This document shows positions 353-38,426 of a stretch of DNA of 64,000 nucleotides, piece by piece (position 1 is the first letter of the stretch; each line of letters starts with the position of its first letter). The stretch covers positions 2,965 through 66,964 of the forward strand of contig JAACPI010000002.1 of the NCBI GenBank assembly GCA_009995545.1, read 5' to 3'. Source of the DNA: a bacterium. Lineage in GTDB: Bacteria > Patescibacteriota > WWE3 > 2-01-FULL-39-13 > JAACPI01. The notes beneath the pieces are model-generated. The model was given only the letters and a program-made list of their open reading frames with translations, was not told where the DNA came from and made no database searches. The position numbers were made by a program, and so were the translations under genes.

Positions 353-1828
353 CTACCTAGAAATAATATCTAGAAGAAATAACAAATCCGACATTCCTAC
401 ATTTGTATCGCCGTCTAAGTCATACTTAGGATTATTATCATTAGGGTGACCGACTATTTGTGAGAGTAATTCTAATAAATCTAGCATATCTACCTGACAA
501 CTATCACCAACTACATTTCCTGGGCAGGGTGAAGGCAAAGTACAGGAACTATTTTCATCAATTAATCCGTCACAGTCATTGTCCACACCATCAGTTATTT
601 CTTTGGATCTATTGGAGTATTTACAATCTCCAACTACATCATTTTTAGTAAGTTCACCATAATACCCAACCATATTTAATGAGTCAGGTTCAATACGGCT
701 AAATATATCCCGTAATCCCGACTCAAAAGCCCCTAGACTAATCCATCCTGGAGCTAAGTTAGATCCCATTTTCCAGGCACCATACTGCCCACCTTCCGGC
801 TCTAGATTTCCATCCAAAAAATCTCTAAATTTTGGTTGTGTAGAATCCTGATTCCAAATCTTTTTAGTTAAGGTATTTGACAAGCTTTTAATATCGTTAC
901 GAGTATAGGTAATACCCGATCTGTAAAACTCTGTAGTGGCATACACATAATCGTTAGCATGACTAACATCGGAAGGTTGGCACCAAGAGTGATTACTATA
1001 ATCCTTACAAGCAGGCACCCCTGGAACATTTACAAAATAACAAGTAGGGTAGTCTGTTTTAATCTCTTCACAGGAGGTATTACCCCAAAAAACGGTCCCA
1101 TCATTTTCAGGCTGATCAAATTGAGAGGATCTCATTAAATTAGTCTGGACAGTAAGAATGTCTAAAATTTTAAAGGATTCTCCTTTTATCTCTATGTTAT
1201 CCTCACCAGCAAGGTAAAGGTTTAATAAAATTACTGCAGGGTGTGAGACTATGTGGTGTACTGTACTAAAACCAGGTTTAAACCTTTGGTAGCAATTTGG
1301 GTCATTGATAATATCTTTCTTAATCTTTTGAATAATTATATCTGCCCTGTCCTGATAACTTTTATCTAGGCAAGATTCATTTTTTATAATACGAACAACT
1401 CGAGAAGCCTCTTTAATTCCTCTCTGCGTATACAAACAAGATAGTCTAGGAGGGGTTGAAGCGTTATTATCATGATCTAAGGGAGAAAGGCCATTGTAGG
1501 ATTCCCATTCCATAAATCCATCACCATTAAGGTCTTTCTGCCTGTTAAAAGACCCTTCGATTAAACCCAGAGCTGAATCCAGATATTTGGTATCTTGTGT
1601 AGACTCATACATAGAAGACAAACCGGATAAATAAGGAAAGTTTGAGTACGGAACATTTAAAACATACGAGTATCTACTAGAGTTATAGAAGTCAGAGTAA
1701 ATACGGTCAAAATTCGTTTGGTACTCTTTATTGTAGGCTAATGCGTTTTGGGGATACCACGAATATAAAGTTAGGGTTATTAATAGTGTAAGAACAAGGG
1801 AATAAAAAATTTTAGGGTTGACGCGCAT
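353..1828 (-). CDS. secreted protein with C-terminal dockerin-like / Ca-binding repeat module; N-terminal catalytic-looking domain of unknown family
   Basis: N-terminal signal peptide (MRVNPKIFYSLVLTLLITLTLYS); C-terminus has DGVDNDCDGLIDE and DLDGDTNVGMSDLLFLLD motifs resembling dockerin type I / metal-binding repeats. Confidence 0.5.
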   Translation of the reverse strand: MRVNPKIFYSLVLTLLITLTLYSWYPQNALAYNKEYQTNFDRIYSDFYNSSRYSYVLNVPYSNFPYLSGLSSMYESTQDTKYLDSALGLIEGSFNRQKDLNGDGFMEWESYNGLSPLDHDNNASTPPRLSCLYTQRGIKEASRVVRIIKNESCLDKSYQDRADIIIQKIKKDIINDPNCYQRFKPGFSTVHHIVSHPAVILLNLYLAGEDNIEIKGESFKILDILTVQTNLMRSSQFDQPENDGTVFWGNTSCEEIKTDYPTCYFVNVPGVPACKDYSNHSWCQPSDVSHANDYVYATTEFYRSGITYTRNDIKSLSNTLTKKIWNQDSTQPKFRDFLDGNLEPEGGQYGAWKMGSNLAPGWISLGAFESGLRDIFSRIEPDSLNMVGYYGELTKNDVVGDCKYSNRSKEITDGVDNDCDGLIDENSSCTLPSPCPGNVVGDSCQVDMLDLLELLSQIVGHPNDNNPKYDLDGDTNVGMSDLLFLLDIISR

Positions 1829-1871
1829 AACAATATATTAACACGCATGAAATATAAAAATATTATGTAGA

Positions 1872-1908
1872 CACACAAAAACAAAAGCAAGAGGGTTTCC
1901 CCTCTTGC
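1872..1908 (-). terminator. rho-independent terminator downstream of 1942..2265
   Basis: gcaagaggg-tttc-ccctcttgc hairpin (1887-1908) followed on minus strand by TTTTGTTTTTGTGTG. Confidence 0.5.
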
Positions 1909-1941
1909 TAGTGCTTATTTTTTTAGTTCAATCGATAATAT

Positions 1942-2265
1942 TTAGTCCAAGTCCACACCATTATCATCACTTTGATCTTCGTGCTCCCCCTGAGCTGAGT
2001 CAGAAGAACTTTTATCTTCTTTTTCGTTATTCTCAGAAGATAATTCCGTTTTTTCGTTTACACTGTCTTCTGATTTAACAATTTCAGAACCAGAAGTAGA
2101 GTCTGGATTTACTTCCTTAGAACTGGTAACTTCTGCCAAAGACCCAGTGGTAATTTCGCCGTTAGCACTTACAGGTACGGAATTGTAATTGGTTAAACCC
2201 GCAAATCCTAACCCGGCAATCACCAAAGCAAGTAAAGACAATGGTATTATTTTTTTCTTATTCAT
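1942..2265 (-). CDS. hypothetical membrane-anchored acidic Ser/Glu-rich protein
   Basis: N-terminal hydrophobic anchor then low-complexity acidic tail; no recognisable motif. Confidence 0.45.
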   Translation of the reverse strand: MNKKKIIPLSLLALVIAGLGFAGLTNYNSVPVSANGEITTGSLAEVTSSKEVNPDSTSGSEIVKSEDSVNEKTELSSENNEKEDKSSSDSAQGEHEDQSDDNGVDLD

Positions 2266-2368
2266 TTAAATCACCTCTTTTCATTCTAACTTAATACTGT
2301 GTTAAGTTTACTAATTTGTGTATGAGAGGAACGTGAATTTAGTAAGGAGTTTAAATGAGAAGCTAGGA

Positions 2369-3034
2369 CTAAAAAATTTTAAGCTGAGGGTATTTATTGT
2401 TAATAAATTTAAGGACAAAAGAGTCTTTAAAATATAGCTGAACTCTGTAAATAAAAGCTAACCAAATAAACCCGGTTAAAAACCCCGCTAAAACATCACT
2501 TGTATAATGAACACCTAAATATACCCTACTAATACCAATTAATAAAATACAAAAAGAACTTATTATGGCTAGGATTTTAGTGCCTTTTTTATTCTGGGTT
2601 AAAGCAAAGTAAAGATAAGTTACTGACACAAAAAATATTACGGCCAACATACTGTGACCAGAGGGAAAACCAAAGTCCTTTTCAATTACTAAAGGTGAAA
2701 TTAAAGGACGAGAACGCCCAACTAAATTTTTAAATATCACATTAACAACCTCCCCAGTTCCTAAAGTTACTGCAAAAATTAAAGCTAAATATCTTTTATT
2801 TTTTAAATACAAATAAAGTAAGATTAAGATTGAGGTAAACACTACTCCATACATTCCCAAAAAACTTACAAACCTCATTAAAATATTTAATACACTGCTC
2901 CTTAAAGAATATAAAAATAACCAAATAGGTTGATCGTAAAAAAAGATTGCGCCATTCATAACTTTAAAAGTTAAATAGCCCAAGAGTAAGAGACAAAATA
3001 AACTGAATACTGTTAACCTAACCTTAAGTGACAT
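2369..3034 (-). CDS. PAP2 superfamily phosphatase (phosphatidic acid / undecaprenyl-PP phosphatase type)
   Basis: All three PAP2 motifs: KNLVGRSRP (Kx6RP), FPSGHS (PSGH), SRVYLGVHYTSD (SRx5Hx3D); multiple TM helices. Confidence 0.75.
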   Translation of the reverse strand: MSLKVRLTVFSLFCLLLLGYLTFKVMNGAIFFYDQPIWLFLYSLRSSVLNILMRFVSFLGMYGVVFTSILILLYLYLKNKRYLALIFAVTLGTGEVVNVIFKNLVGRSRPLISPLVIEKDFGFPSGHSMLAVIFFVSVTYLYFALTQNKKGTKILAIISSFCILLIGISRVYLGVHYTSDVLAGFLTGFIWLAFIYRVQLYFKDSFVLKFINNKYPQLKIF

Positions 3035-21722: not shown

Positions 21723-21799
21723 TGGTCGGGGTGACAGGACTTGAACCTGCGACCTCTCGCACCCCATGCGAACGCGCTAGCCAACTGCGCTACACCCCG
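21723..21799 (-). tRNA. tRNA-Pro (anticodon GGG), CCA encoded
   Basis: Manual fold: acceptor CGGGGUG/CACCCCG, D-stem GCGC, anticodon stem UUCGC/GCGAG with loop AUGGGGU, T-arm GCAGG-UUCAAGU-CCUGU, ACCA 3' end. Confidence 0.85.
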
Positions 21800-21902: not shown

Positions 21903-22118
21903 ATGGATCCGGAGTTAAGAGCCCGACTAGATGCACAAGATCAAGCTATAGCAGCAATTTACGCCTCTGCAGAAAAATCACGAAAATATTTCTTATGGAC
22001 ACTAATTATTACAATCGTGACTATAGTCTTGCCAATTATTGGAATGTTGTTTGCAATACCCATGTTAATGAACGCCTATAGCTCAGCTCTTGGGGGTGCG
22101 GGAATGCTAGGTCTCTAA
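21903..22118 (+). CDS. small hypothetical membrane protein
   Basis: 71-aa ORF with one long TM segment; weak. Confidence 0.3.
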   Translation: MDPELRARLDAQDQAIAAIYASAEKSRKYFLWTLIITIVTIVLPIIGMLFAIPMLMNAYSSALGGAGMLGL

Positions 22119-22763
22119 TAATAGATTTTCTATTTGATCGTAACTAAAACCCCTAGAAACCAAATATCTAGTTATACTGCTTTTTCTTTTATACTCATTT
22201 TCTATTTTTGCGCATTTTTTAGTAGCTTTTAAATATTCTTTATTTAAAGCTTTCGAAAAATCTACTTGCTCTAAAGACGCTTCTGAAATCTCTTTGTTTA
22301 TACCCTTTTGATATAAATCTTGTTTAATAAACATAGGACCCTTTCCTTGGGTAACTCGTTGTTCAACTAGCCACTTTGCAAAAGCTTCATCATTTAAATA
22401 GTCGTATTTTTTTAAAAACTCTAAAGTTGAATCAATTATTTGGGAATATAATTTTGGAATATTTAAGCTAGATACTTTAAGTGATTTTGATAAACGCTTG
22501 GATAATACTTCGTTTATTTTATTAAATACTTCTTTTTCACTTCGAGGTCTAAAACCTAAGTAATTAAGGGCTTTCTCTTTTAAATACTCCTTATTCTCAT
22601 CAAGAACCACTAATTCTATTTGTTCGGGTACAAAATTAGACCCTTCAGTAAGTTTGTATTTACCTAAAACGTAATCACTAACCGAAAAGGCAAAGTCGTT
22701 ATCTAAAAATATAGAAAATCGACCTCCTTTTTTAGTAGGCTCTACTTTACTTATTAAAGGCAT
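22107..22763 (-). CDS. recX: recombination regulator RecX
   Basis: Immediately downstream of recA on same strand; repeated helical L..KG(I/F) motifs typical of RecX. Confidence 0.6.
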   Translation of the reverse strand: MPLISKVEPTKKGGRFSIFLDNDFAFSVSDYVLGKYKLTEGSNFVPEQIELVVLDENKEYLKEKALNYLGFRPRSEKEVFNKINEVLSKRLSKSLKVSSLNIPKLYSQIIDSTLEFLKKYDYLNDEAFAKWLVEQRVTQGKGPMFIKQDLYQKGINKEISEASLEQVDFSKALNKEYLKATKKCAKIENEYKRKSSITRYLVSRGFSYDQIENLLLET

Positions 22764-22769
22764 TATTTT

Positions 22770-23855
22770 TTACGAATCAGAATCTTCATGTGTACTAGAA
22801 GTTCCTATTTCTAGCATTTCATCATCTCCCTTTTTTGCTTTATTATAGATTTCTTTTTCTATTTCTTCGGCAACTTTAGGGTTTTCTTTTAAGTATATTT
22901 TTGCGGCATCCCTACCTTGTGAAATATTGTCACCTTTATAGCTGTACCAAGCACCCGCTTTTTGCAAAACTTCTAGCTCCACACCTACATCTACCAAATT
23001 ACCCATTTTACTAATCCCCTCGGCAAACATAATGTCAAACTCTGCAACCTTAAAAGGTGGCGCAACTTTATTTTTAACAACTTTAACCTTTACTCTGTTT
23101 CCTGTAATTTCGTCTCCTTCAGTAATACTCCCTGTTCTTCTTATATCCAAACGAACACTAGCGTAAAATCTTAATGCCCTACCTCCTGGAGTTGTTTCGG
23201 GATTACCAAACATAACACCAATTTTTTCCCTTATTTGATTGGTAAAAATAACAGTAGTGTTAGTTTTATTTATAGCTCCTGTAATTTTTCTAAGTGCCTG
23301 GCTCATTAACCTGGCCTGTAAACCCATATGACTATCTCCCATTTCTCCTTCGATTTCTGCTCGAGGAGTTAGAGCTGCAACAGAATCTATAACTACTAAA
23401 TCCACAGCCCCACTTCTAATTAGTTTTTCGGCAATTTCTAAACCCTGCTCACCTGTGTCTGGTTGAGAAACATATAAGTCATCTATATTTACCCCTATTG
23501 TTTTAGCATAAATGGGGTCTAAAGCATGCTCCGCATCTATAAAGGCACAGATACCACCTTTTCTTTGAGACTCGGCAACTATGTGTAAAACTAAAGTGGT
23601 TTTACCCGAGGACTCAGGACCAAAAATTTCTATAACTCTGCCTTTAGGAACACCTCCTATGCCTAAAGCTAAATCTAAAGCTATAGCTCCAGTTTTAATA
23701 ACTTCCGCATTGCTAAATCTAGGGGATTCTCCAAGTTTTATCACAGCACCAGTTCCAAATTCTTTTTCAATTAAAGATATAGCGCTTTTTAACGCAGCTG
23801 CTTTTCCGGAATTCTGTGCTTCTTTTTTGCTGTCTTCTATTGGTTTTTTAGGCAT
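22770..23855 (-). CDS. recA: recombinase RecA
   Basis: Walker [21 protein letters not shown]1/L2 loop regions; full-length conservation. Confidence 0.97.
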
Positions 23856-24182
23856 GTTATTTTAGTAAATTTATAAATTATCGTCTGTGTTAGTTCTTAT
23901 ATTACTATAACATAAAAAACTTTTCTGTTCGTATTTTATTCGGAACACTTGTTTGCTGATTTTAAACCCAGTGTGTAGTATAATCCCCCACAGAAAGATG
24001 TTCATTATTAACTTTAAAGAGCACTAATATAAAGCAAAACAATGGAAAATATATTTACAAGAATAAGTTTCAATTATCTTAATTACTTAATCTCCAATAT
24101 ATCTTAGAAGCCAGAGGTCTAGGTACCTTTTGTCTTTTATTTAATCCAAAACTTTTCTTTACATTGGTGTGTTTTACAAACT

Positions 24183-25679
24183 ATGTTAGAAGTTTTATTA
24201 ACTTTTTTAGTAACTACAGTAGGTGTTGGTGGGAGTGTGTTTGTTTACGCTAATCGAAAACAGAAAGAGGAGTCTTCAAAAAAAGAGGTTGAGGCGGAAA
24301 ACAAAGCAAAAAAAATAGTACTAGATGCAGAAGAGAAGGCTCTTCACATTAAAAGAAAGTCCGAAGAGGATGAGATACGAGTTAAAAAAGAATTAGCTGA
24401 AAAAGAAAAAAGAGCCGAAATCGAGAAAGAGAAGGCGAATCTGGTTAAAGAAGAATACGAAAAGAAAGAAAAGCTCATTGAAGGTGAAAGAGAAAGCCTT
24501 AATCAAAGAACAAAACAGCTAGAAGAGAAAATTAATGAGCAAATAAGTAAGCTAGATGGAATTGCAGGACTAACCAAAGAAGAAGCGAAAAAGATAATAC
24601 TAGAAAATACCGAAAAATCCCTATCCCAACAAATTGGAAAAAGAATTGCAGAAGCAGAAGAAAAAGTAAAAACCGATGTTGATGACAAAGCCCGAGAACT
24701 TTTGGTAGATGCTATGCAGCACGGAGCTAACGACTACGTTGCAGAATACACTGTAAGTACCGTTCATTTACCTTCAAAAGATGTAAAAGGTAGGATTATA
24801 GGTAAAGAAGGACGAAATATAAGATCTTTTGAAGAACAAACAGGGGTAACATTAGATTTAGACGAATCCCCAGAAGCCGTTAGAATAAGCTGCTTTGACT
24901 CAGTAAGAAGAGAAATAGCGAGAGTATCTTTAGAAAGACTTATTAAAGACGGTAGAGTACACCCCGCTAGAATCGAGGAAGTTGTAGCTAAAACCAGAGA
25001 AGAAATCGATAAAATAATGTATAAAGAGGGAGAAAAGCTAAGCCATAAAGTTGGTATATACAACCTACCCCCAGATTTAATTCAAAATTTAGGCAAATAC
25101 AAATATAGGTATTCTTATGGACAGAATATGATTGAGCATACTTTAGAAGAAACCAAAATTGGTACTAAGATTGCTCATGAAATTGGAGCGGATGTAACTG
25201 TAACAAAATTAGCTTGTTTACTTCATGATATTGGTAAGATATTTACCGACAAAGAGGGTAGCCATATAGAGCTGGCCGCTGAGTATTTAGCAAAATTTGA
25301 TATACCTAAAAAAGTTATCGAAGCTGTTGAGGATCACCACAAAGACCACCCAAGATCTGTTGAAGGTATGATAGTACAAATAGCTGACACAATTAGTGGA
25401 GGTAGACCTGGTGCTAGGTATGAAGACTACGAAGTATATGCTAAAAGGATGACCGGATTAGAGGAGGCGGCATTAAGCTTTGCTGGAGTCGATAAAGCAT
25501 ATGCGATATCTGCAGGTAGAGAAGTTAGAGTTATGCTTAAAGCCGACGAGGTAGACGATGCTTCTGCAGTCAAGTTAGCCGACGATATAGCAACTAAAAT
25601 TCAAAAAGAGAATACATACCCAGGAACAGTAAAAGTAACTGTTATAAGGGAAATGAGAGCCATAGGAGTTGCAAAATAG
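24183..25679 (+). CDS. rny: ribonuclease Y
   Basis: N-terminal TM, long coiled-coil, KH domain (GRIIGKEGRNIR), HD domain (LHDIGK...HH). Confidence 0.9.
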   Translation: MLEVLLTFLVTTVGVGGSVFVYANRKQKEESSKKEVEAENKAKKIVLDAEEKALHIKRKSEEDEIRVKKELAEKEKRAEIEKEKANLVKEEYEKKEKLIEGERESLNQRTKQLEEKINEQISKLDGIAGLTKEEAKKIILENTEKSLSQQIGKRIAEAEEKVKTDVDDKARELLVDAMQHGANDYVAEYTVSTVHLPSKDVKGRIIGKEGRNIRSFEEQTGVTLDLDESPEAVRISCFDSVRREIARVSLERLIKDGRVHPARIEEVVAKTREEIDKIMYKEGEKLSHKVGIYNLPPDLIQNLGKYKYRYSYGQNMIEHTLEETKIGTKIAHEIGADVTVTKLACLLHDIGKIFTDKEGSHIELAAEYLAKFDIPKKVIEAVEDHHKDHPRSVEGMIVQIADTISGGRPGARYEDYEVYAKRMTGLEEAALSFAGVDKAYAISAGREVRVMLKADEVDDASAVKLADDIATKIQKENTYPGTVKVTVIREMRAIGVAK

Positions 25680-25699
25680 TTAGGGCTAAAGCTTAACAT

Positions 25700-26482
25700 A
25701 TGAATGTTTTATTTATTGGAGACATTGTAAGTAGTTTAGGAAGACAGGCCATTTCTGAATTACTACCTCAAGTTGTTAAAGAACAAAACATAGATATTGT
25801 TATAGCTAATTGCGAAAACACTACAGGAGGAAGAGGTATTTCGGTAAAACATTATCAGGAGCTTAAGGGTTACGGAATCCACGCTTTTACAGGAGGAGAC
25901 CACATCTATAGATATAAAGAAATCGAAGAATATATAGGAAATTTAGATATAGCTGTCCCCCTTAATGGTGATAAAAATTTACCAGGTAACCGTCAAGTAA
26001 CGGTAGACCTGGGTGAGGGGGAAAAACTTACCGTTATCTCGCTATTAGGAAATGCACTCATGAAAGCAGAAGCAACGAACCCCTTTCAGGCTATTGAAGA
26101 ATTGTTGCAGAGGAGAAATTTTGATCACCCAGTACTTGTAGATTTTCATGCCGAGGCTACAAGCGAAAAAAAGGCTATGGGATATTATCTCCAAGGAAGA
26201 GTCTCTGCTGTGGTAGGAACCCACACCCACGTACAGACATGTGACGAGGAAATTTTAGGAAACAAAACTGCATATATTACAGATGTTGGTATGACAGGAA
26301 GTATAAATTCTGTAGTAGGAGTTAAAAAAGAAATTATTATAAATCGCCTTAGTAAAGGGATTAAAGATAAGTTTGAATGGGAGAAAAATGGTAATTATGC
26401 CCTAAGCGCTGTTGTTATAAGCATTGACACAAATAAACAAATACCTAAGAATGTAGATAGAATTTATTTGACTAGTAGTTAA
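25700..26482 (+). CDS. ymdB: YmdB-family metallophosphoesterase (TIGR00282)
   Basis: MNVLFIGDIV, GGDHIY, VDFHAEATSEK, GTHTHVQT motifs; conserved rny-ymdB pairing. Confidence 0.85.
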   Translation: MNVLFIGDIVSSLGRQAISELLPQVVKEQNIDIVIANCENTTGGRGISVKHYQELKGYGIHAFTGGDHIYRYKEIEEYIGNLDIAVPLNGDKNLPGNRQVTVDLGEGEKLTVISLLGNALMKAEATNPFQAIEELLQRRNFDHPVLVDFHAEATSEKKAMGYYLQGRVSAVVGTHTHVQTCDEEILGNKTAYITDVGMTGSINSVVGVKKEIIINRLSKGIKDKFEWEKNGNYALSAVVISIDTNKQIPKNVDRIYLTSS

Positions 26483-32532: not shown

Positions 32533-33489
32533 TTAATTACTAAAATAATTAAAAACATTCTCAGAAAGTTTAGCGATTGTTTCATTTGCTTCAAGATTAT
32601 TATCTGTTTCAGTTAAAGCCACGAAAATATAGTCGCCGTCGGATGTATACACAATACCCGCATCGTGACTAAAGTTGTATAGCTCCCCTGTTTTATGAGC
32701 AGTAATAACTTCACTGGGTAAGTACTTAGGTAGTTTACTATTTAAGGTTTGCTGCTGTAAAAGATTAAGCATTTTATTGCTGTATCCCTCATTTACTAGT
32801 TCTTTATTATAAATTTTAGTAAAAAATAGAGCCGTATCCTTAGCAGTAGTCATTGGGTCATCTTCACCCTCACCAATAGAAGACTCTGCAAAGCCCTCGT
32901 TTTGTAGAAACTTTGATACACTTGCGAAATCTACTTTTTTTGCTAAAAGCAATGCAGAATAGTTATCCGAGTAAGTTATCGTTTGATATAGGGCATCTTT
33001 AACAGACAAAGTTATAGTACCCCTTGTTTGTTCCTGATACTCTGGAGAAATACCAAAATAGCTATTTAAATTTGCGATGTAATCACTTAAGACATTTTCC
33101 TCACTGTACAAACCACTGTTTATCTGTTGATAAACTGTGGCCATAAGCCAAAGCTTATATAAACTGGCGCTTACAAACTTAGAATCTTCATTTAACTCGA
33201 ATACTTCACCAGTTTTTAAATTTTTAATATAAATACCGTAATTCCCCTGTTTATCTTTTAACGAATTTTCTACGACAGATCTAAGGTCCGTATCTAATAC
33301 ACTCTGGGGTTTAATATAAGAAATATCTAGAGCGTTTTCTGTGTTTATTAACAAGGAGTTTTCTTGTTTCAAAACACTGTTTTTAGGATTACTAGAAATT
33401 GCCGACAGCACTGCTACAAACAAAGTTAACAGTACCAGTGACTTTAACAACAGATTATTATTTTTTGCTTTTTTACGGGTTTTTTTCAT
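32533..33489 (-). CDS. class A beta-lactamase-like / PBP-family serine hydrolase, secreted
   Basis: Signal anchor; SxxK (SASLYK), SDN (YSDN), KTG (HKTG) motifs in correct order. Confidence 0.65.
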   Translation of the reverse strand: MKKTRKKAKNNNLLLKSLVLLTLFVAVLSAISSNPKNSVLKQENSLLINTENALDISYIKPQSVLDTDLRSVVENSLKDKQGNYGIYIKNLKTGEVFELNEDSKFVSASLYKLWLMATVYQQINSGLYSEENVLSDYIANLNSYFGISPEYQEQTRGTITLSVKDALYQTITYSDNYSALLLAKKVDFASVSKFLQNEGFAESSIGEGEDDPMTTAKDTALFFTKIYNKELVNEGYSNKMLNLLQQQTLNSKLPKYLPSEVITAHKTGELYNFSHDAGIVYTSDGDYIFVALTETDNNLEANETIAKLSENVFNYFSN

Positions 33490-34423: not shown

Positions 34424-36460
34424 ATGAGAGTTGAATACAGGTATGCAAAATTTAATTCTAGTAAACTTTATTACGCGCAGCTTGGAAACGGAAAAAATAC
34501 TACATTTTTTGTACTTGGGTGGTTAAGTAATGTTGATACTTTTCCTATTAAAGAACTCACATCAAAGTATAAAGACAAGTTAAAAGAAAATAAATTAATT
34601 TTTGTACATTTGAGTAATCATTATAAATCTGACTACAGTAACAAAACTTACGATGTTGATCTATATACTGAGGAATTAAAAGATTTTTGCAAAGCTCTTA
34701 AGTTTAAAAAAATAAATCTTGTGGCCCACAGTGCTGGAGGTAGGTACGCAATAAATTTTGCAAGTAAGTATGGGTACTTAGTAAATAAGTTAGTTCTAGT
34801 TTCTCCTGCTGGTCTAAGCAGCAAAAAGGCAAATCTAAATCAGCTAAATAAGGTTCGAGGTTATTTCCATAAATTCAATAACCTTAGTGTTAGGCAAGAA
34901 CAAATACTTAAAGAAACCTTTTTAAACGTTTACGGCATAAATTTAACAAATAAACTTTCAAGCATACAATGCCCAACCCTTGTTATATGGGGAACAAACG
35001 ATAACACTACACCGTTTAAAAGGTCTGCCATATTAACAAAAAGTATTAAGAACTGTCTTTTTTACCCTATTAAAAATAAAGATCATATGGTTATTAGGGA
35101 TAAAACAGCTTTTTCTTATATATTAAATTTTATTGACGAAAGTCCTAGAGTAATTAACAGTTTAGTTAAACTTTCAAAGGAAAAAGAACTTAGTAAAGAG
35201 CTAAAGCGGTACCAATATAATTACTTACGTATAAGCCCAACTTATCAAGCTCGAAAACTCTTTGTCCTTTTTATAAATAAAAACAAACTAAAGCACGTTG
35301 AAGCAGAGTATTTGCAGATAGAAAGTGCTTTAAATAAACTTTGTGGATATATGTTAAAGTCTAATAACCAAGAGTATAAAGACACTCTTAATTTGCAGGG
35401 AATTAACTTTAACAAACTAGATAGCCGTTGTAATTCTCCGCTGTACAACTATTCTAGAGTCGACAGTATTTTTGACGGCTCAACCAGCAAGATTGTTGAA
35501 TTTAATGCAAGAAGACCCCAGATGTTTGAAGATGTAGACTGGTTTAACGAGTACTTTCAATCATTTACTTTTCTTAATAAACCTAAACATAATTTAACAG
35601 ATAAGATAATTGAATCCATTAAAATTCAGTCCAAAGACAAAAATATTTCACCTAAGAATATTATTCTTATTTCAGACTTTGACAAAAAGAGCTCTTTTAG
35701 TTTTTACTCTAGGTTAAAACAAGCTTTTAAAACATCATCGGTACAAAAATTAACTACAAAATCTTCTGCAAAGAAAATTTCTGAAAGCTTGCTAATTAAC
35801 AACAGTCTAGTTATAGACCAAAAAAAGATAGATTTAATTATTGTACAAAGTCTAGGTTTTTTAAAAAACAGCTTTTTTTACAGTAATGGGAAAATTGTAA
35901 ACACCAACGTTAGAAAAGCCTATTACAAAAATAACCTTCAAATAAGCTCGCCCTTGACAAGCAGTGTTTTTGGTAGAAAACAAAGTTTGAAACTGCTAGA
36001 GAATAAAGAAACACAGCAAACATTAAACTTAAATAAAAACGAAATTACGGCTATTAATAGACTTCCAAAAACTAAAGAATTCAAAGATGTAAAAGTATTA
36101 TCTAAAAAATATGTTGTTAAGATACAAGGATTAGGTGGTGGAACGGGTGTCTATTTTTATAAAGACATCGGCGCTAGCGAAAAAAAGCTTTTTATTAGGT
36201 TAGCTAAAAAGAAGAAAAATAACATATTACTTCAAGAAAAAATTGATTTGGTGCCAATAAAAATATACAGTCTAAAAACCCTTAAACCATTTTTTGCAGC
36301 AATATCTTTAGAACCATTTATTGTAAATACAAACGGCAAACCGGAGATCGTTGACTACACTGCTCGAGCAGTTCCCCAGAAATGGATTAAAGATAACACT
36401 AAGTTTAATCCAGTTTTTAACGAACCTAATATATGGTTTGGTGGTGTGATGCAGTACTAA
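34424..36460 (+). CDS. fusion protein: N-terminal alpha/beta hydrolase + C-terminal ATP-grasp-like module
   Basis: VAHSAGG nucleophile elbow in first 240 aa; C-terminal IVEFNARRP (ExN-like) and KYVVKIQGLGGGTGVY (ATP-grasp Gly loop-like). Confidence 0.45.
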   Translation: MRVEYRYAKFNSSKLYYAQLGNGKNTTFFVLGWLSNVDTFPIKELTSKYKDKLKENKLIFVHLSNHYKSDYSNKTYDVDLYTEELKDFCKALKFKKINLVAHSAGGRYAINFASKYGYLVNKLVLVSPAGLSSKKANLNQLNKVRGYFHKFNNLSVRQEQILKETFLNVYGINLTNKLSSIQCPTLVIWGTNDNTTPFKRSAILTKSIKNCLFYPIKNKDHMVIRDKTAFSYILNFIDESPRVINSLVKLSKEKELSKELKRYQYNYLRISPTYQARKLFVLFINKNKLKHVEAEYLQIESALNKLCGYMLKSNNQEYKDTLNLQGINFNKLDSRCNSPLYNYSRVDSIFDGSTSKIVEFNARRPQMFEDVDWFNEYFQSFTFLNKPKHNLTDKIIESIKIQSKDKNISPKNIILISDFDKKSSFSFYSRLKQAFKTSSVQKLTTKSSAKKISESLLINNSLVIDQKKIDLIIVQSLGFLKNSFFYSNGKIVNTNVRKAYYKNNLQISSPLTSSVFGRKQSLKLLENKETQQTLNLNKNEITAINRLPKTKEFKDVKVLSKKYVVKIQGLGGGTGVYFYKDIGASEKKLFIRLAKKKKNNILLQEKIDLVPIKIYSLKTLKPFFAAISLEPFIVNTNGKPEIVDYTARAVPQKWIKDNTKFNPVFNEPNIWFGGVMQY

Positions 36461-36513: not shown

Positions 36514-36587
36514 TGGCTGGGGTATAAGGACTCGAACCCTAACTACTGGGACCAGAACCCAGCGTCCTACCATTAGACGATACCCCA
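36514..36587 (-). tRNA. tRNA-Gln (anticodon CUG) with U1-A72 pair, G73, CCA encoded
   Basis: Manual fold: UGGGGUA/UACCCCA acceptor, anticodon stem CUGGG/CCCAG loop UUCUGGU, T-arm AGGGUUCGAGUCCU. Confidence 0.85.
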
Positions 36588-37483: not shown

Positions 37484-37942
37484 TTACTTAAAAGATAACG
37501 AAATAGTCTTGTCTAAAATAATTAAGGCCTTTCTGGTTTCTTCAGTTAAGTCATAATCCTTCAGCGCCTTGTTTACAGAAACCCAAACATAAGAATCATG
37601 TTCGGCACTTAGCTTAACTGTACCCGCAATCTTTTTTGTGACCCCAAACAGTTGTACGTAAGTTAAACCCTTATACTTTCCCACAGGTAAAATACCACTG
37701 TTGTAGTACGCAACTCGGTTTACTGGCAGCACCATTAAACCAGTCTCCTCCATAACCTCGCGCTCCAAAGCATCTGCGATATCTTGGCCTTTGTCTAATT
37801 TTCCGCCCGGGACTTCCCACTGAAGAGGTTTATAGAGATCTTTAGAGGATCTTTGAATTAACAAAATCTTATCTTTCCCTAGAACAATTGCCCTATTTAT
37901 TAGCAAAAGTCTAGGGCGTTCAGATATATCTTTCTTACTCAT
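37484..37942 (-). CDS. NUDIX hydrolase
   Basis: Nudix box PGGKLDKGQDIADALEREVMEETGL. Confidence 0.8.
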   Translation of the reverse strand: MSKKDISERPRLLLINRAIVLGKDKILLIQRSSKDLYKPLQWEVPGGKLDKGQDIADALEREVMEETGLMVLPVNRVAYYNSGILPVGKYKGLTYVQLFGVTKKIAGTVKLSAEHDSYVWVSVNKALKDYDLTEETRKALIILDKTISLSFK

Positions 37943-37988
37943 TAAGTAATTATATATAAAATAGATAGTTTATGCTATAATTAAACTA

Positions 37989-38322
37989 TAGGATGTAGTT
38001 CTGATGGCTCCTTAAATTTATTTAAGGAGAGGAAAGTCCGGACTGCAAAGAGCAGGGATAGGGTTGCAAAACCCTTAGCAGAAATGTTAGGTGTTGTTTA
38101 CTCGAAAGGGTAAACAAACAGAAGGTGAGTTAACACCCTCTGAGAGCCGCAGAGACGAGCCTTTGGCTAAGCTTTGGCAACAAGGTATGTCGAAGGGTGA
38201 AACGTGGCAATCCCACCCGCAGCAACTCAAATTAGAACCTATGGTTCGGCTCGAACGGGTTCGTGGTAGAGGCAAAGATAAATCATCAGTTAAAACAGAA
38301 TCCGGCTTATTCACATCCTATA
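37989..38322 (+). ncRNA. rnpB: RNase P RNA (bacterial type A)
   Basis: Conserved blocks GAGAGGAAAGUCCGGAC, AGCAGGGAUAGG, GGGUGAAACG, ACAGAAUCCGGCUUA; P1 pairing aggatgtag/cacatcct; P3 hairpin ctcctta...taaggag. Confidence 0.8.
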
Positions 38323-38426
38323 CATTTAAACTTCACTCACCTTAAATAAGGTGAGTACTCTTATCTATTTCTTATCTTCGCCGTGTAGTATGTTAAAAGA
38401 TAACTAAATAATTTATTAAACTAAAA

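What the first reader, a model, noticed from the sequence alone, without database searches (positions are those of the whole stretch)
34424..36460. Alpha/beta-hydrolase fused to an ATP-grasp-like module with apparently permuted motif order
The first 240 aa are an alpha/beta hydrolase (VAHSAGG nucleophile elbow). The remaining 440 aa contain IVEFNARRP, resembling the Mg-binding ExN of ATP-grasp enzymes, about 180 residues before a KYVVKIQGLGGGTGVY Gly-rich loop like the ATP-grasp B-loop.

The motifs are in reversed order relative to classical ATP-grasp enzymes. This points to a circularly permuted ATP-grasp (GspS/preATP-grasp-like) domain or a new arrangement.

A hydrolase-ligase fusion could make and break an amide or ester bond on the same substrate, for example peptide-modified metabolites or cell-wall components.
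Basis: inference. Interest (0 to 1): 0.5.

Follow-up and report, generated by a model that had tools for sequence, protein, structure and literature searches.

The report
Hydrolase fused to permuted ATP-grasp ligase
This gene joins a serine hydrolase to a bond-forming, ATP-using ligase of the glutathionylspermidine-synthetase type; the ligase half belongs to a small, unannotated family from tiny uncultured (candidate-phyla-radiation) bacteria that almost always travels with this hydrolase, so the two probably make and break (or process) the same still-unknown molecule.

The parts
34424..36460 (+). Whole gene: 678-aa cytoplasmic two-domain protein (alpha/beta hydrolase + circularly permuted ATP-grasp ligase), apparently monocistronic
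   Evidence: ORF list. Identical product on 21 contigs. No N-terminal signal or TM segment by inspection of the sequence. There is a 197-nt gap upstream, and tRNA-Gln lies on the opposite strand downstream.
34424..35143 (+). Alpha/beta-hydrolase domain, aa 1-240
   Evidence: Pfam Abhydrolase_1 E 5.5e-12, 46.3 bits against cutoff 25.8. The profile of 10 partner hydrolases hits PDB esterases, lipases and C-C hydrolases at E 1e-25 to 1e-12.
34730..34732 (+). Ser103, nucleophile in the H-S-A-G-G elbow
   Evidence: Invariant in 10 fused and split partner hydrolases.
35000..35002 (+). Asp193, triad acid (G-x-x-D)
   Evidence: Invariant.
35084..35086 (+). His221, triad base
   Evidence: Invariant.
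35156..36457 (+). Circularly permuted ATP-grasp ligase module, aa 245-678
35450..35506 (+). Y343-x-R345-x-D347 ...
   Evidence: Invariant in 19 sequences. Aligned by hhalign to GspS R316/D318/E330/N332 and to YgiC YSRLD...LENNADTP. The equivalent R139/D141/E163/N165 of Cp1B are required for activity (PMC12568646).
35969..35983 (+). F-G517-R-K519-Q: first ATP-binding lysine motif (G-x-K)
   Evidence: G and K are invariant. Second hhalign alignment to GspS I-P-G496-N-K498 (E 0.053, weak). The ATP-binding role of the GspS lysine is from my own knowledge.
36107..36154 (+). KYVVK566-IQ-GLGGGTGVY: second ATP-binding lysine followed by the Gly-rich lid loop
   Evidence: K566, G573 and (>=90%) G575 are conserved in the 19-sequence alignment; G569 and G571 are invariant only among the 5 closest relatives. 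The profile aligns this stretch to Cp1B 'YILKPIRSGKGDGIVFG' (E 1e-3) and to PurD 'YVIKADGLARGKGVLI' (E 0.38). GspS has AVK533PIAGRCGSN at the corresponding place.
36227..36241 (+). L-L-Q604-E-K: invariant Gln after the lid loop, likely adenine-hinge contact
   Evidence: Q is invariant and aligns with the Q of Cp1B 'CIVQRKV'. The assigned role is an inference.
36359..36415 (+). R648 (S/T-A-R-A) and F661-N662-P663: C-terminal conserved residues of unknown role, possibly substrate or phosphate binding
   Evidence: F, N and P are invariant and R is at least 90% conserved. No residue-level mapping was obtained.

Best explanation
The gene encodes one cytoplasmic polypeptide with two intact active sites. 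SHOWN (fold and motifs): the C-terminal 434 aa are a circularly permuted ATP-grasp ligase of the GspS/YgiC/eukaryotic glutathione-synthetase type, and the N-terminal 240 aa are a Ser-Asp-His alpha/beta hydrolase. INFERRED from the chemistry of that clade: the ligase binds Mg-ATP between K519, K566, the Gly-rich lid and Q604. It phosphorylates a substrate carboxylate with help from R345, D347, E359 and N361, forming an acyl-phosphate. An amine (or possibly a hydroxyl) then attacks to give an amide (or ester). INFERRED from gene context: the hydrolase acts on the same molecule. Most likely it cleaves the bond the ligase makes, so the protein sets the level of a small conjugate, such as a peptide-amine or amino-acid conjugate. 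This is the logic of E. coli glutathionylspermidine synthetase/amidase, with an alpha/beta hydrolase in place of the CHAP amidase. The substrate is unknown. My sub-probabilities are about 0.95 for the permuted ATP-grasp ligase plus active serine hydrolase, about 0.85 for the two halves working on one pathway, and about 0.4 for the opposing make-and-break cycle on a small molecule. The confidence given below (0.4) is for the full statement including that last step.
Against: No substrate evidence of any kind was obtained. The hydrolase's nearest solved relatives are esterases, lipases and C-C hydrolases rather than amidases or peptidases, so the bond could be an ester, or the hydrolase could act at a different step. 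One member (L014/P0017, WWE3) has no adjacent hydrolase, so the ligase can stand alone. Sequence-level links to named families are all sub-threshold. The residue mapping rests on weak hhalign and HMMER alignments plus the fold match, not on a residue-level structural superposition. No full-length model was made, so it is unknown whether the two active sites face each other.
Confidence: 0.4

Rival explanations
1. Sequential pathway rather than opposing reactions. The hydrolase first frees a carboxylate or an amine from a scavenged ester or amide precursor (or releases or edits an intermediate). The ligase then couples it to a second partner. This would be a salvage or remodelling route suited to reduced-genome CPR bacteria.
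For: The hydrolase gene always comes first, and overlapping start/stop codons suggest translational coupling. The hydrolase profile is closest to esterases, lipases and C-C hydrolases, not amidases, which fits a bond different from the one the ligase makes. L007 carries two ligase paralogs plus a carboxypeptidase, which looks like a multistep route.
Against: The closest structural relative with a fused hydrolase (GspS) uses opposing activities. No further pathway genes are conserved around the pair. Gene order alone says nothing about reaction order.
Confidence: 0.3
2. Protein or peptide tagging. The ligase adds amino acid(s) to a C-terminal or side-chain carboxylate of a protein or ribosomal peptide (RimK/TTL-like logic), and the hydrolase removes the tag.
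For: In L007 a second ligase paralog sits next to a genuine MATCAP/DUF1704 metallocarboxypeptidase (45.2 bits against cutoff 27). MATCAP reverses tubulin tyrosination by an ATP-grasp ligase (own knowledge). In L010 the most divergent member has a small cytoplasmic trypsin-like peptidase ending 1 nt before its start, in place of the alpha/beta hydrolase. Iyer et al. 2009 (Mol Biosyst 5:1636, from memory; the paper is not held) predicted peptide-tagging systems built on permuted ATP-grasp ligases and unrelated peptidases.
Against: The nearest structural relatives (YgiC, GspS, TryS, GS, Cp1B) all act on small molecules or short peptides. No conserved small ORF or candidate target gene was seen next to the pair. 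The MATCAP and cytoplasmic-trypsin cases are single loci. The other trypsin neighbour (L024) is TM-anchored and HtrA-like, so it is probably coincidental. The trypsin hit in L010 is borderline (27.5 against 27.6 bits).
Confidence: 0.15
3. The ligase-like module is a non-catalytic (binding or regulatory) domain attached to an ordinary esterase, or the fusion has no functional meaning.
For: Public annotation sees only an 'alpha/beta hydrolase'. No curated family model recognises the C-terminal part.
Against: All residues expected for ATP-grasp catalysis are invariant across the family. The pairing is conserved, and the fusion arose twice.
Confidence: 0.03
4. A genuinely new motif order or new fold, or a classical non-permuted ATP-grasp whose motifs were misread.
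For: None beyond the absence of Pfam hits for the window protein itself.
Confidence: 0.01

Closest known systems
E. coli glutathionylspermidine synthetase/amidase (Gss/GspSA; PDB 2io7)
   Different: The hydrolase is a Ser-Asp-His alpha/beta hydrolase, not a CHAP cysteine amidase. Structure-aligned sequence identity is only about 12%. PF03738 is not matched. 'RRPQ' follows E-x-N where GspS has 'ADSA'. Nothing indicates glutathione or spermidine as substrates.
E. coli YgiC/YjfC peptide-spermidine ligases (PDB 7uka)
   Different: Identity is 15%. YgiC has no partner alpha/beta hydrolase; it sits beside ygiB (DUF1190). The family here carries about 50-70 extra residues.
Pfam CP_ATPgrasp_2 (PF14403) and CP_ATPgrasp_1 (PF04174; structure 3n6x)
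   Different: All hits are below the 32-bit gathering score, and the window protein has none. The partners described for those families (alpha-E domain, transglutaminase-like or NTN peptidases, from memory of Iyer et al. 2009) were not seen here. Here the partner is an alpha/beta hydrolase.
Eukaryotic-type glutathione synthetases and fungal Cp1B (E-64 pathway; PDB 9cjn)
   Different: Those enzymes are eukaryotic and have no fused hydrolase. Identity is 10-13%.
Ligase/peptidase pairs on macromolecules: tubulin tyrosine ligase with MATCAP, cyanophycin synthetase with cyanophycinase
   Same: An ATP-grasp ligase is paired with a dedicated hydrolase that reverses its product (own knowledge). A MATCAP-family gene neighbours a paralog in L007.

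Membership tests
ATP-grasp superfamily, circularly permuted clade (GspS/YgiC, eukaryotic GS, CP_ATPgrasp) | Three-dimensional fold with permuted topology | tested here: met
ATP-grasp superfamily, circularly permuted clade (GspS/YgiC, eukaryotic GS, CP_ATPgrasp) | R-x-D ... E-x-N tetrad (Mg2+/acyl-phosphate site) placed N-terminal to the ATP-binding lysines | tested here: met
   R345, D347, E359 and N361 are invariant. They align to GspS R316/D318/E330/N332 and to YgiC. The D-to-E spacing of 12 is the same as in GspS.
ATP-grasp superfamily, circularly permuted clade (GspS/YgiC, eukaryotic GS, CP_ATPgrasp) | Two ATP-binding lysines and a Gly-rich lid loop | tested here: met
   K519 and K566 are invariant and the loop glycines are conserved. 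They align to GspS K498 (weak), to Cp1B and to PurD. GspS has K533-PIAGRCGSN at the matching position.
ATP-grasp superfamily, circularly permuted clade (GspS/YgiC, eukaryotic GS, CP_ATPgrasp) | ATP-dependent carboxylate-amine ligation | not testable with these tools
   This needs an enzyme assay.
Pfam PF14403 CP_ATPgrasp_2 | Score at or above the gathering threshold (32 bits) | tested here: not met
   The window module gives no hit at E<=10. 11 of 19 relatives hit with best E 5.7e-5, and the one score reported (P0005, 20.2 bits) is well below the 32-bit cutoff.
Pfam PF03738 GSP_synth / NCBIfam PRK10507 (GspS amidase/synthase) | Profile match | tested here: not met
   1 of 19 members hits at E 0.015 (Pfam) and 1 of 19 at E 0.0057 (NCBIfam). 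The window protein gives none.
Bifunctional GspS amidase/synthetase architecture | N-terminal CHAP cysteine amidase | tested here: not met
   The N-terminal domain is Abhydrolase_1 with a Ser-Asp-His triad.
Bifunctional GspS amidase/synthetase architecture | Glutathione- and spermidine-binding residues | not tested
   No residue-level structural superposition was available.
Alpha/beta hydrolase fold (PF00561 Abhydrolase_1) | Profile match above threshold and a nucleophile-acid-His triad | tested here: met
   46.3 bits against cutoff 25.8. S103, D193 and H221 are invariant in 10 partners.
Serine aminopeptidase S33 (PF12146 Hydrolase_4) | Specific membership implying peptidase activity | tested here: inconclusive
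   31.7 bits against cutoff 27, but this overlaps the stronger generic Abhydrolase_1 hit. The profile's best PDB relatives are esterases, lipases and C-C hydrolases.

The most novel reading that the evidence does not exclude
The hydrolase-ligase pair defines a previously unrecognised, CPR/Patescibacteria-specific conjugate cycle. That would be a new small amide- or ester-linked metabolite, for example a peptide-polyamine or other low-molecular-weight conjugate comparable in role to glutathionylspermidine or trypanothione. Its level would be set by opposing ATP-dependent synthesis and serine-hydrolase cleavage, in organisms thought to have almost no such metabolism.
Probability: 0.25. Interest if true: 0.7.

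Novelty: new variant of a known kind. Interest (0 to 1): 0.45.

Why it matters
Public databases label this protein only as "alpha/beta hydrolase" and its standalone relatives as "hypothetical protein". No Pfam or NCBIfam model covers the ligase half. Recognising it as a catalytically intact GspS/YgiC-type ligase that is tied to a dedicated hydrolase gives a testable biochemical handle on a conserved two-enzyme module in candidate-phyla-radiation bacteria, whose metabolism is poorly known. It is also a second, independent example of the GspS design principle of ligase and hydrolase in one chain, built with a different hydrolase fold and assembled by fusion at least twice. It does not overturn any concept, because the fold, the permutation and the chemistry are established.

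Tried and rejected
1. Pfam, NCBIfam and PDB sequence searches with the window's C-terminal module alone gave no hits. Only the family profile and the fold search were informative.
3. hhalign in global mode against GspS+YgiC gave a meaningless alignment. Local mode gave the motif alignments at weak significance, E 0.001-0.05.
5. Iyer et al. 2009 is not held. A literature search for this architecture found nothing relevant.
6. I tested whether the recurrent NUDIX and methyltransferase neighbours are orthologous. tblastn with the window's neighbours found no match in the other loci at E<=0.01, so I do not count them as part of the system.
7. Trypsin-like neighbours: the L024 one is TM-anchored and HtrA-like, so likely coincidental. 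Only the L010 one looks like a real partner.
8. A search with the divergent P0027 found no further relatives. The word-indexed profile search found only 6 proteins.
9. The promoter/terminator scan around the gene found nothing above the shuffled background.

Full report
**Observation.**
The window has a 678-codon ORF at 34424..36460 on the + strand. The two ligase motifs are 205 residues apart rather than about 180. The identical protein is called on 21 contigs from independent JGI, ENA and Logan samples. Relatives at 89% and 55% identity have the same 676-678-aa fused architecture. So this is a real gene, not an assembly chimera.

**N-terminal half.**
Residues 1-240 pass Pfam Abhydrolase_1 (46.3 bits against cutoff 25.8). 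They match many solved alpha/beta hydrolases. In an alignment of ten fused or separately encoded orthologs, Ser103 (H-S-A-G-G), Asp193 and His221 are invariant, so the domain should be catalytically active. A profile of these ten sequences is closest to intracellular PHB depolymerase, ABHD6, arylesterases, lipases and BphD-type C-C hydrolases, at E 1e-25 to 1e-12. That is the esterase/lipase/MCP-hydrolase branch, not the classical peptidase branches. No N-terminal signal peptide or TM segment is visible in the sequence.

**C-terminal half: fold.**
Residues 245-678 alone hit nothing in Pfam, NCBIfam or PDB sequences. An exhaustive HMMER pass over 1.84 billion cluster representatives found only 23 relatives. 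Most are standalone proteins of about 450 aa.

- With a 19-sequence alignment, AlphaFold2 gave a confident model (pLDDT 90, pTM 0.90).
- The next hit scored 10.8, and classical ATP-grasp enzymes (LysX/ArgX, synapsin, GshB, Ddl, RimK) scored about 6-8.
- The earlier low-confidence model gave the same top ten.

All ten top hits belong to the clade in which the ATP-grasp fold is circularly permuted.

**C-terminal half: motifs.**
Across 19 members that are 24-38% identical to the window, the invariant or nearly invariant columns include Y343-x-R345-x-D347, E359-x-N361, G517-x-K519, V-x-K566, glycines of the following loop, Q604, R648 and F661-N662-P663 (full-length numbering).

- hhalign places R-x-D...E-x-N on YgiC '[24 protein letters not shown]' and on GspS 'GRMDFCMDERGLKVYEYNADSAS', i.e. 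R316/D318/E330/N332, with the same 12-residue D-to-E spacing.
- A second local alignment places G-x-K519 on GspS G496-N-K498.
- The Lys566 plus Gly-loop stretch aligns to Cp1B (profile E 1e-3) and to PurD (E 0.38). It corresponds by inspection to GspS AVK533-PIAGRCGSN.
- In Cp1B the equivalent R139/D141/E163/N165 surround the nucleotide, and alanine substitution abolishes or strongly reduces activity (PMC12568646).
- Eleven of 19 members give sub-threshold hits to PF14403 CP_ATPgrasp_2, best E 5.7e-5. One each hits PF04174 and PF03738.

Each sequence alignment is statistically weak on its own. They are mutually consistent, and they agree with a very strong fold match.

The reversed motif order is real. 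It is the established circular permutation of the GspS/eukaryotic-GS/CP_ATPgrasp clade, not a new arrangement. Both stated refutation conditions were tested and not met.

**Context and the fusion-versus-split question.**
The family members examined come from CPR-type metagenome contigs. The named MAGs include Saccharibacteria and WWE3. I examined 13 distinct contexts.

| Context | Loci |
|---|---|
| Orthologous alpha/beta hydrolase fused | window clade; L013 and P0020 clade |
| Orthologous alpha/beta hydrolase encoded immediately upstream | L001 (stop, 2 nt, ATG); L006, L007/8, L009, L016, L017, L020, L022 (overlaps of 4-50 nt) |
| Small cytoplasmic trypsin-like gene ending 1 nt before the ligase start (borderline Pfam score) | L010, the most divergent member |
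| Downstream trypsin-family gene that is TM-anchored and HtrA-like, probably coincidental | L024 |
| No hydrolase neighbour | L014, WWE3 |

That makes 10 of 13 contexts with the alpha/beta hydrolase fused or adjacent. The upstream hydrolases tested by tblastn are 34-42% identical to the window's. In L007 a second ligase paralog (P0013) precedes the hydrolase and is itself preceded by a genuine MATCAP/DUF1704 metallocarboxypeptidase (45.2 bits against cutoff 27).

A neighbour-joining tree of 26 ligase modules puts the window's fused clade among the split forms P0005-P0007 (79% support). The other fused clade (L013+P0020) sits next to the split L016/P0019. Each fused clade has 100% support, and the fused forms were monophyletic in 0 of 200 bootstraps. 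So the fusion arose at least twice, or fission happened many times. Other neighbours differ from locus to locus. NUDIX genes recur within two genes in four clades, but they are not detectably orthologous.

**Mechanism.**
What is shown is a pair of intact catalytic domains, a permuted ATP-grasp fold and a conserved physical linkage.

From the chemistry of this clade I infer that Mg-ATP is bound by K519, K566, the Gly-rich lid and Q604. A substrate carboxylate is phosphorylated at the R345/D347/E359/N361 site. The acyl-phosphate is then attacked by an amine, or possibly a hydroxyl.

From context I infer that the hydrolase acts on the same molecule. I favour an opposing synthetase/hydrolase pair that sets the level of a small conjugate, as in E. 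coli GspS amidase/synthetase (about 0.4). A sequential salvage or remodelling pathway comes next (about 0.3), then protein or peptide tagging with removal (about 0.15). The esterase-like affinities of the hydrolase keep ester bonds and the sequential model in play. The MATCAP and cytoplasmic trypsin-like partners argue for amide or peptide bonds. No data identify the substrate.

**Comparison and novelty.**
The protein works like GspS/YgiC-type ligases and shares their fold and catalytic signature. It fails the profile thresholds of PF14403, PF04174, PF03738 and PRK10507, and it has no CHAP amidase. I therefore file it as a new, small family inside the permuted ATP-grasp clade, with a new partner and architecture. 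Public names are only "alpha/beta hydrolase [bacterium]" (NCT55453.1) and "hypothetical protein". I found no paper describing this architecture, though the library is incomplete and Iyer et al. 2009 could not be read. The verdict is a new variant of a known kind, of moderate interest (0.45).

Noticed in passing
window 37988-38325 (+): Bacterial RNase P class A RNA (112 bits, full-length model match). The mechanical ORF 38091..38345 (+, 84 aa) lies inside it and is almost certainly not a gene.
   Followed up: partly
window 36514-36587 (-): tRNA-Gln (CTG) lies 54 nt downstream of the fused gene on the opposite strand and marks the end of its transcription unit. A second tRNA lies at 21726-21799 (-).
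   Followed up: partly
window 22000-26000: GC skew flips sharply from -0.20 (22-24 kb) to +0.21 (24-26 kb), and the cumulative-skew minimum falls near 24 kb. AT skew flips as well. This could be a replication origin or a strand switch in gene orientation.
   Followed up: no
window 32533-33489 (-): A 318-aa class-A beta-lactamase-family protein (PF13354, E 6e-45) with a hydrophobic N-terminus lies two genes upstream of the fused gene. In a CPR-like genome this is more likely a penicillin-binding or cell-wall enzyme than a resistance gene.
   Followed up: no
L007 4209-9362 (JGI 3300053118, 917-kb contig): Four-gene cluster: MATCAP/DUF1704 metallocarboxypeptidase (45 bits), ligase paralog (identical to P0013), alpha/beta hydrolase, ligase (P0009). 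The two ligases plus two hydrolases suggest a multistep peptide-type pathway.
   Followed up: partly
L010 7436-9347 (ENA ERZ27280973, 153-kb contig): The most divergent family member (P0027, 24% identity, a singleton in the databases) is preceded by a 187-aa cytoplasmic trypsin-like gene instead of the alpha/beta hydrolase. The gap is 1 nt and H/D/S motifs are present. The contig also encodes cytochrome bd oxidase and a cellulose-synthase-like GT2, so it may not be CPR.
   Followed up: partly
window 37484-37942 (-); L006 6508-7047; L013 1750-2481; L022 6356-6754; P0020 contig 1147-1878: A NUDIX hydrolase gene lies within two genes of the hydrolase-ligase pair in four separate clades. tblastn with the window's NUDIX found no match in the loci then held (L006, L013) at E<=0.01; L022 and the P0020 contig were not tested. 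A functional link is possible but unsupported.
   Followed up: partly
L017 1281-2671: In one Saccharibacteria MAG the ligase is split into two ORFs (1281..1790 and 1853..2671), with a gap in the tblastn match. This could be a pseudogene, or a sequencing or assembly error.
   Followed up: no
L015/L009 and L016: Two MAGs carrying family members are titled 'uncultured Pseudomonadales' and 'uncultured Gammaproteobacteria'. Their ligases cluster with the Saccharibacteria fused clade in the tree, so the taxonomic labels may be unreliable.
   Followed up: no
L009 7334-7990 (-): A 218-aa methyltransferase-fold gene with a Spermine_synth (PF01564) hit lies three genes from the pair. This is notable because the closest structural relatives ligate spermidine, but it is a single locus.
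   Followed up: no
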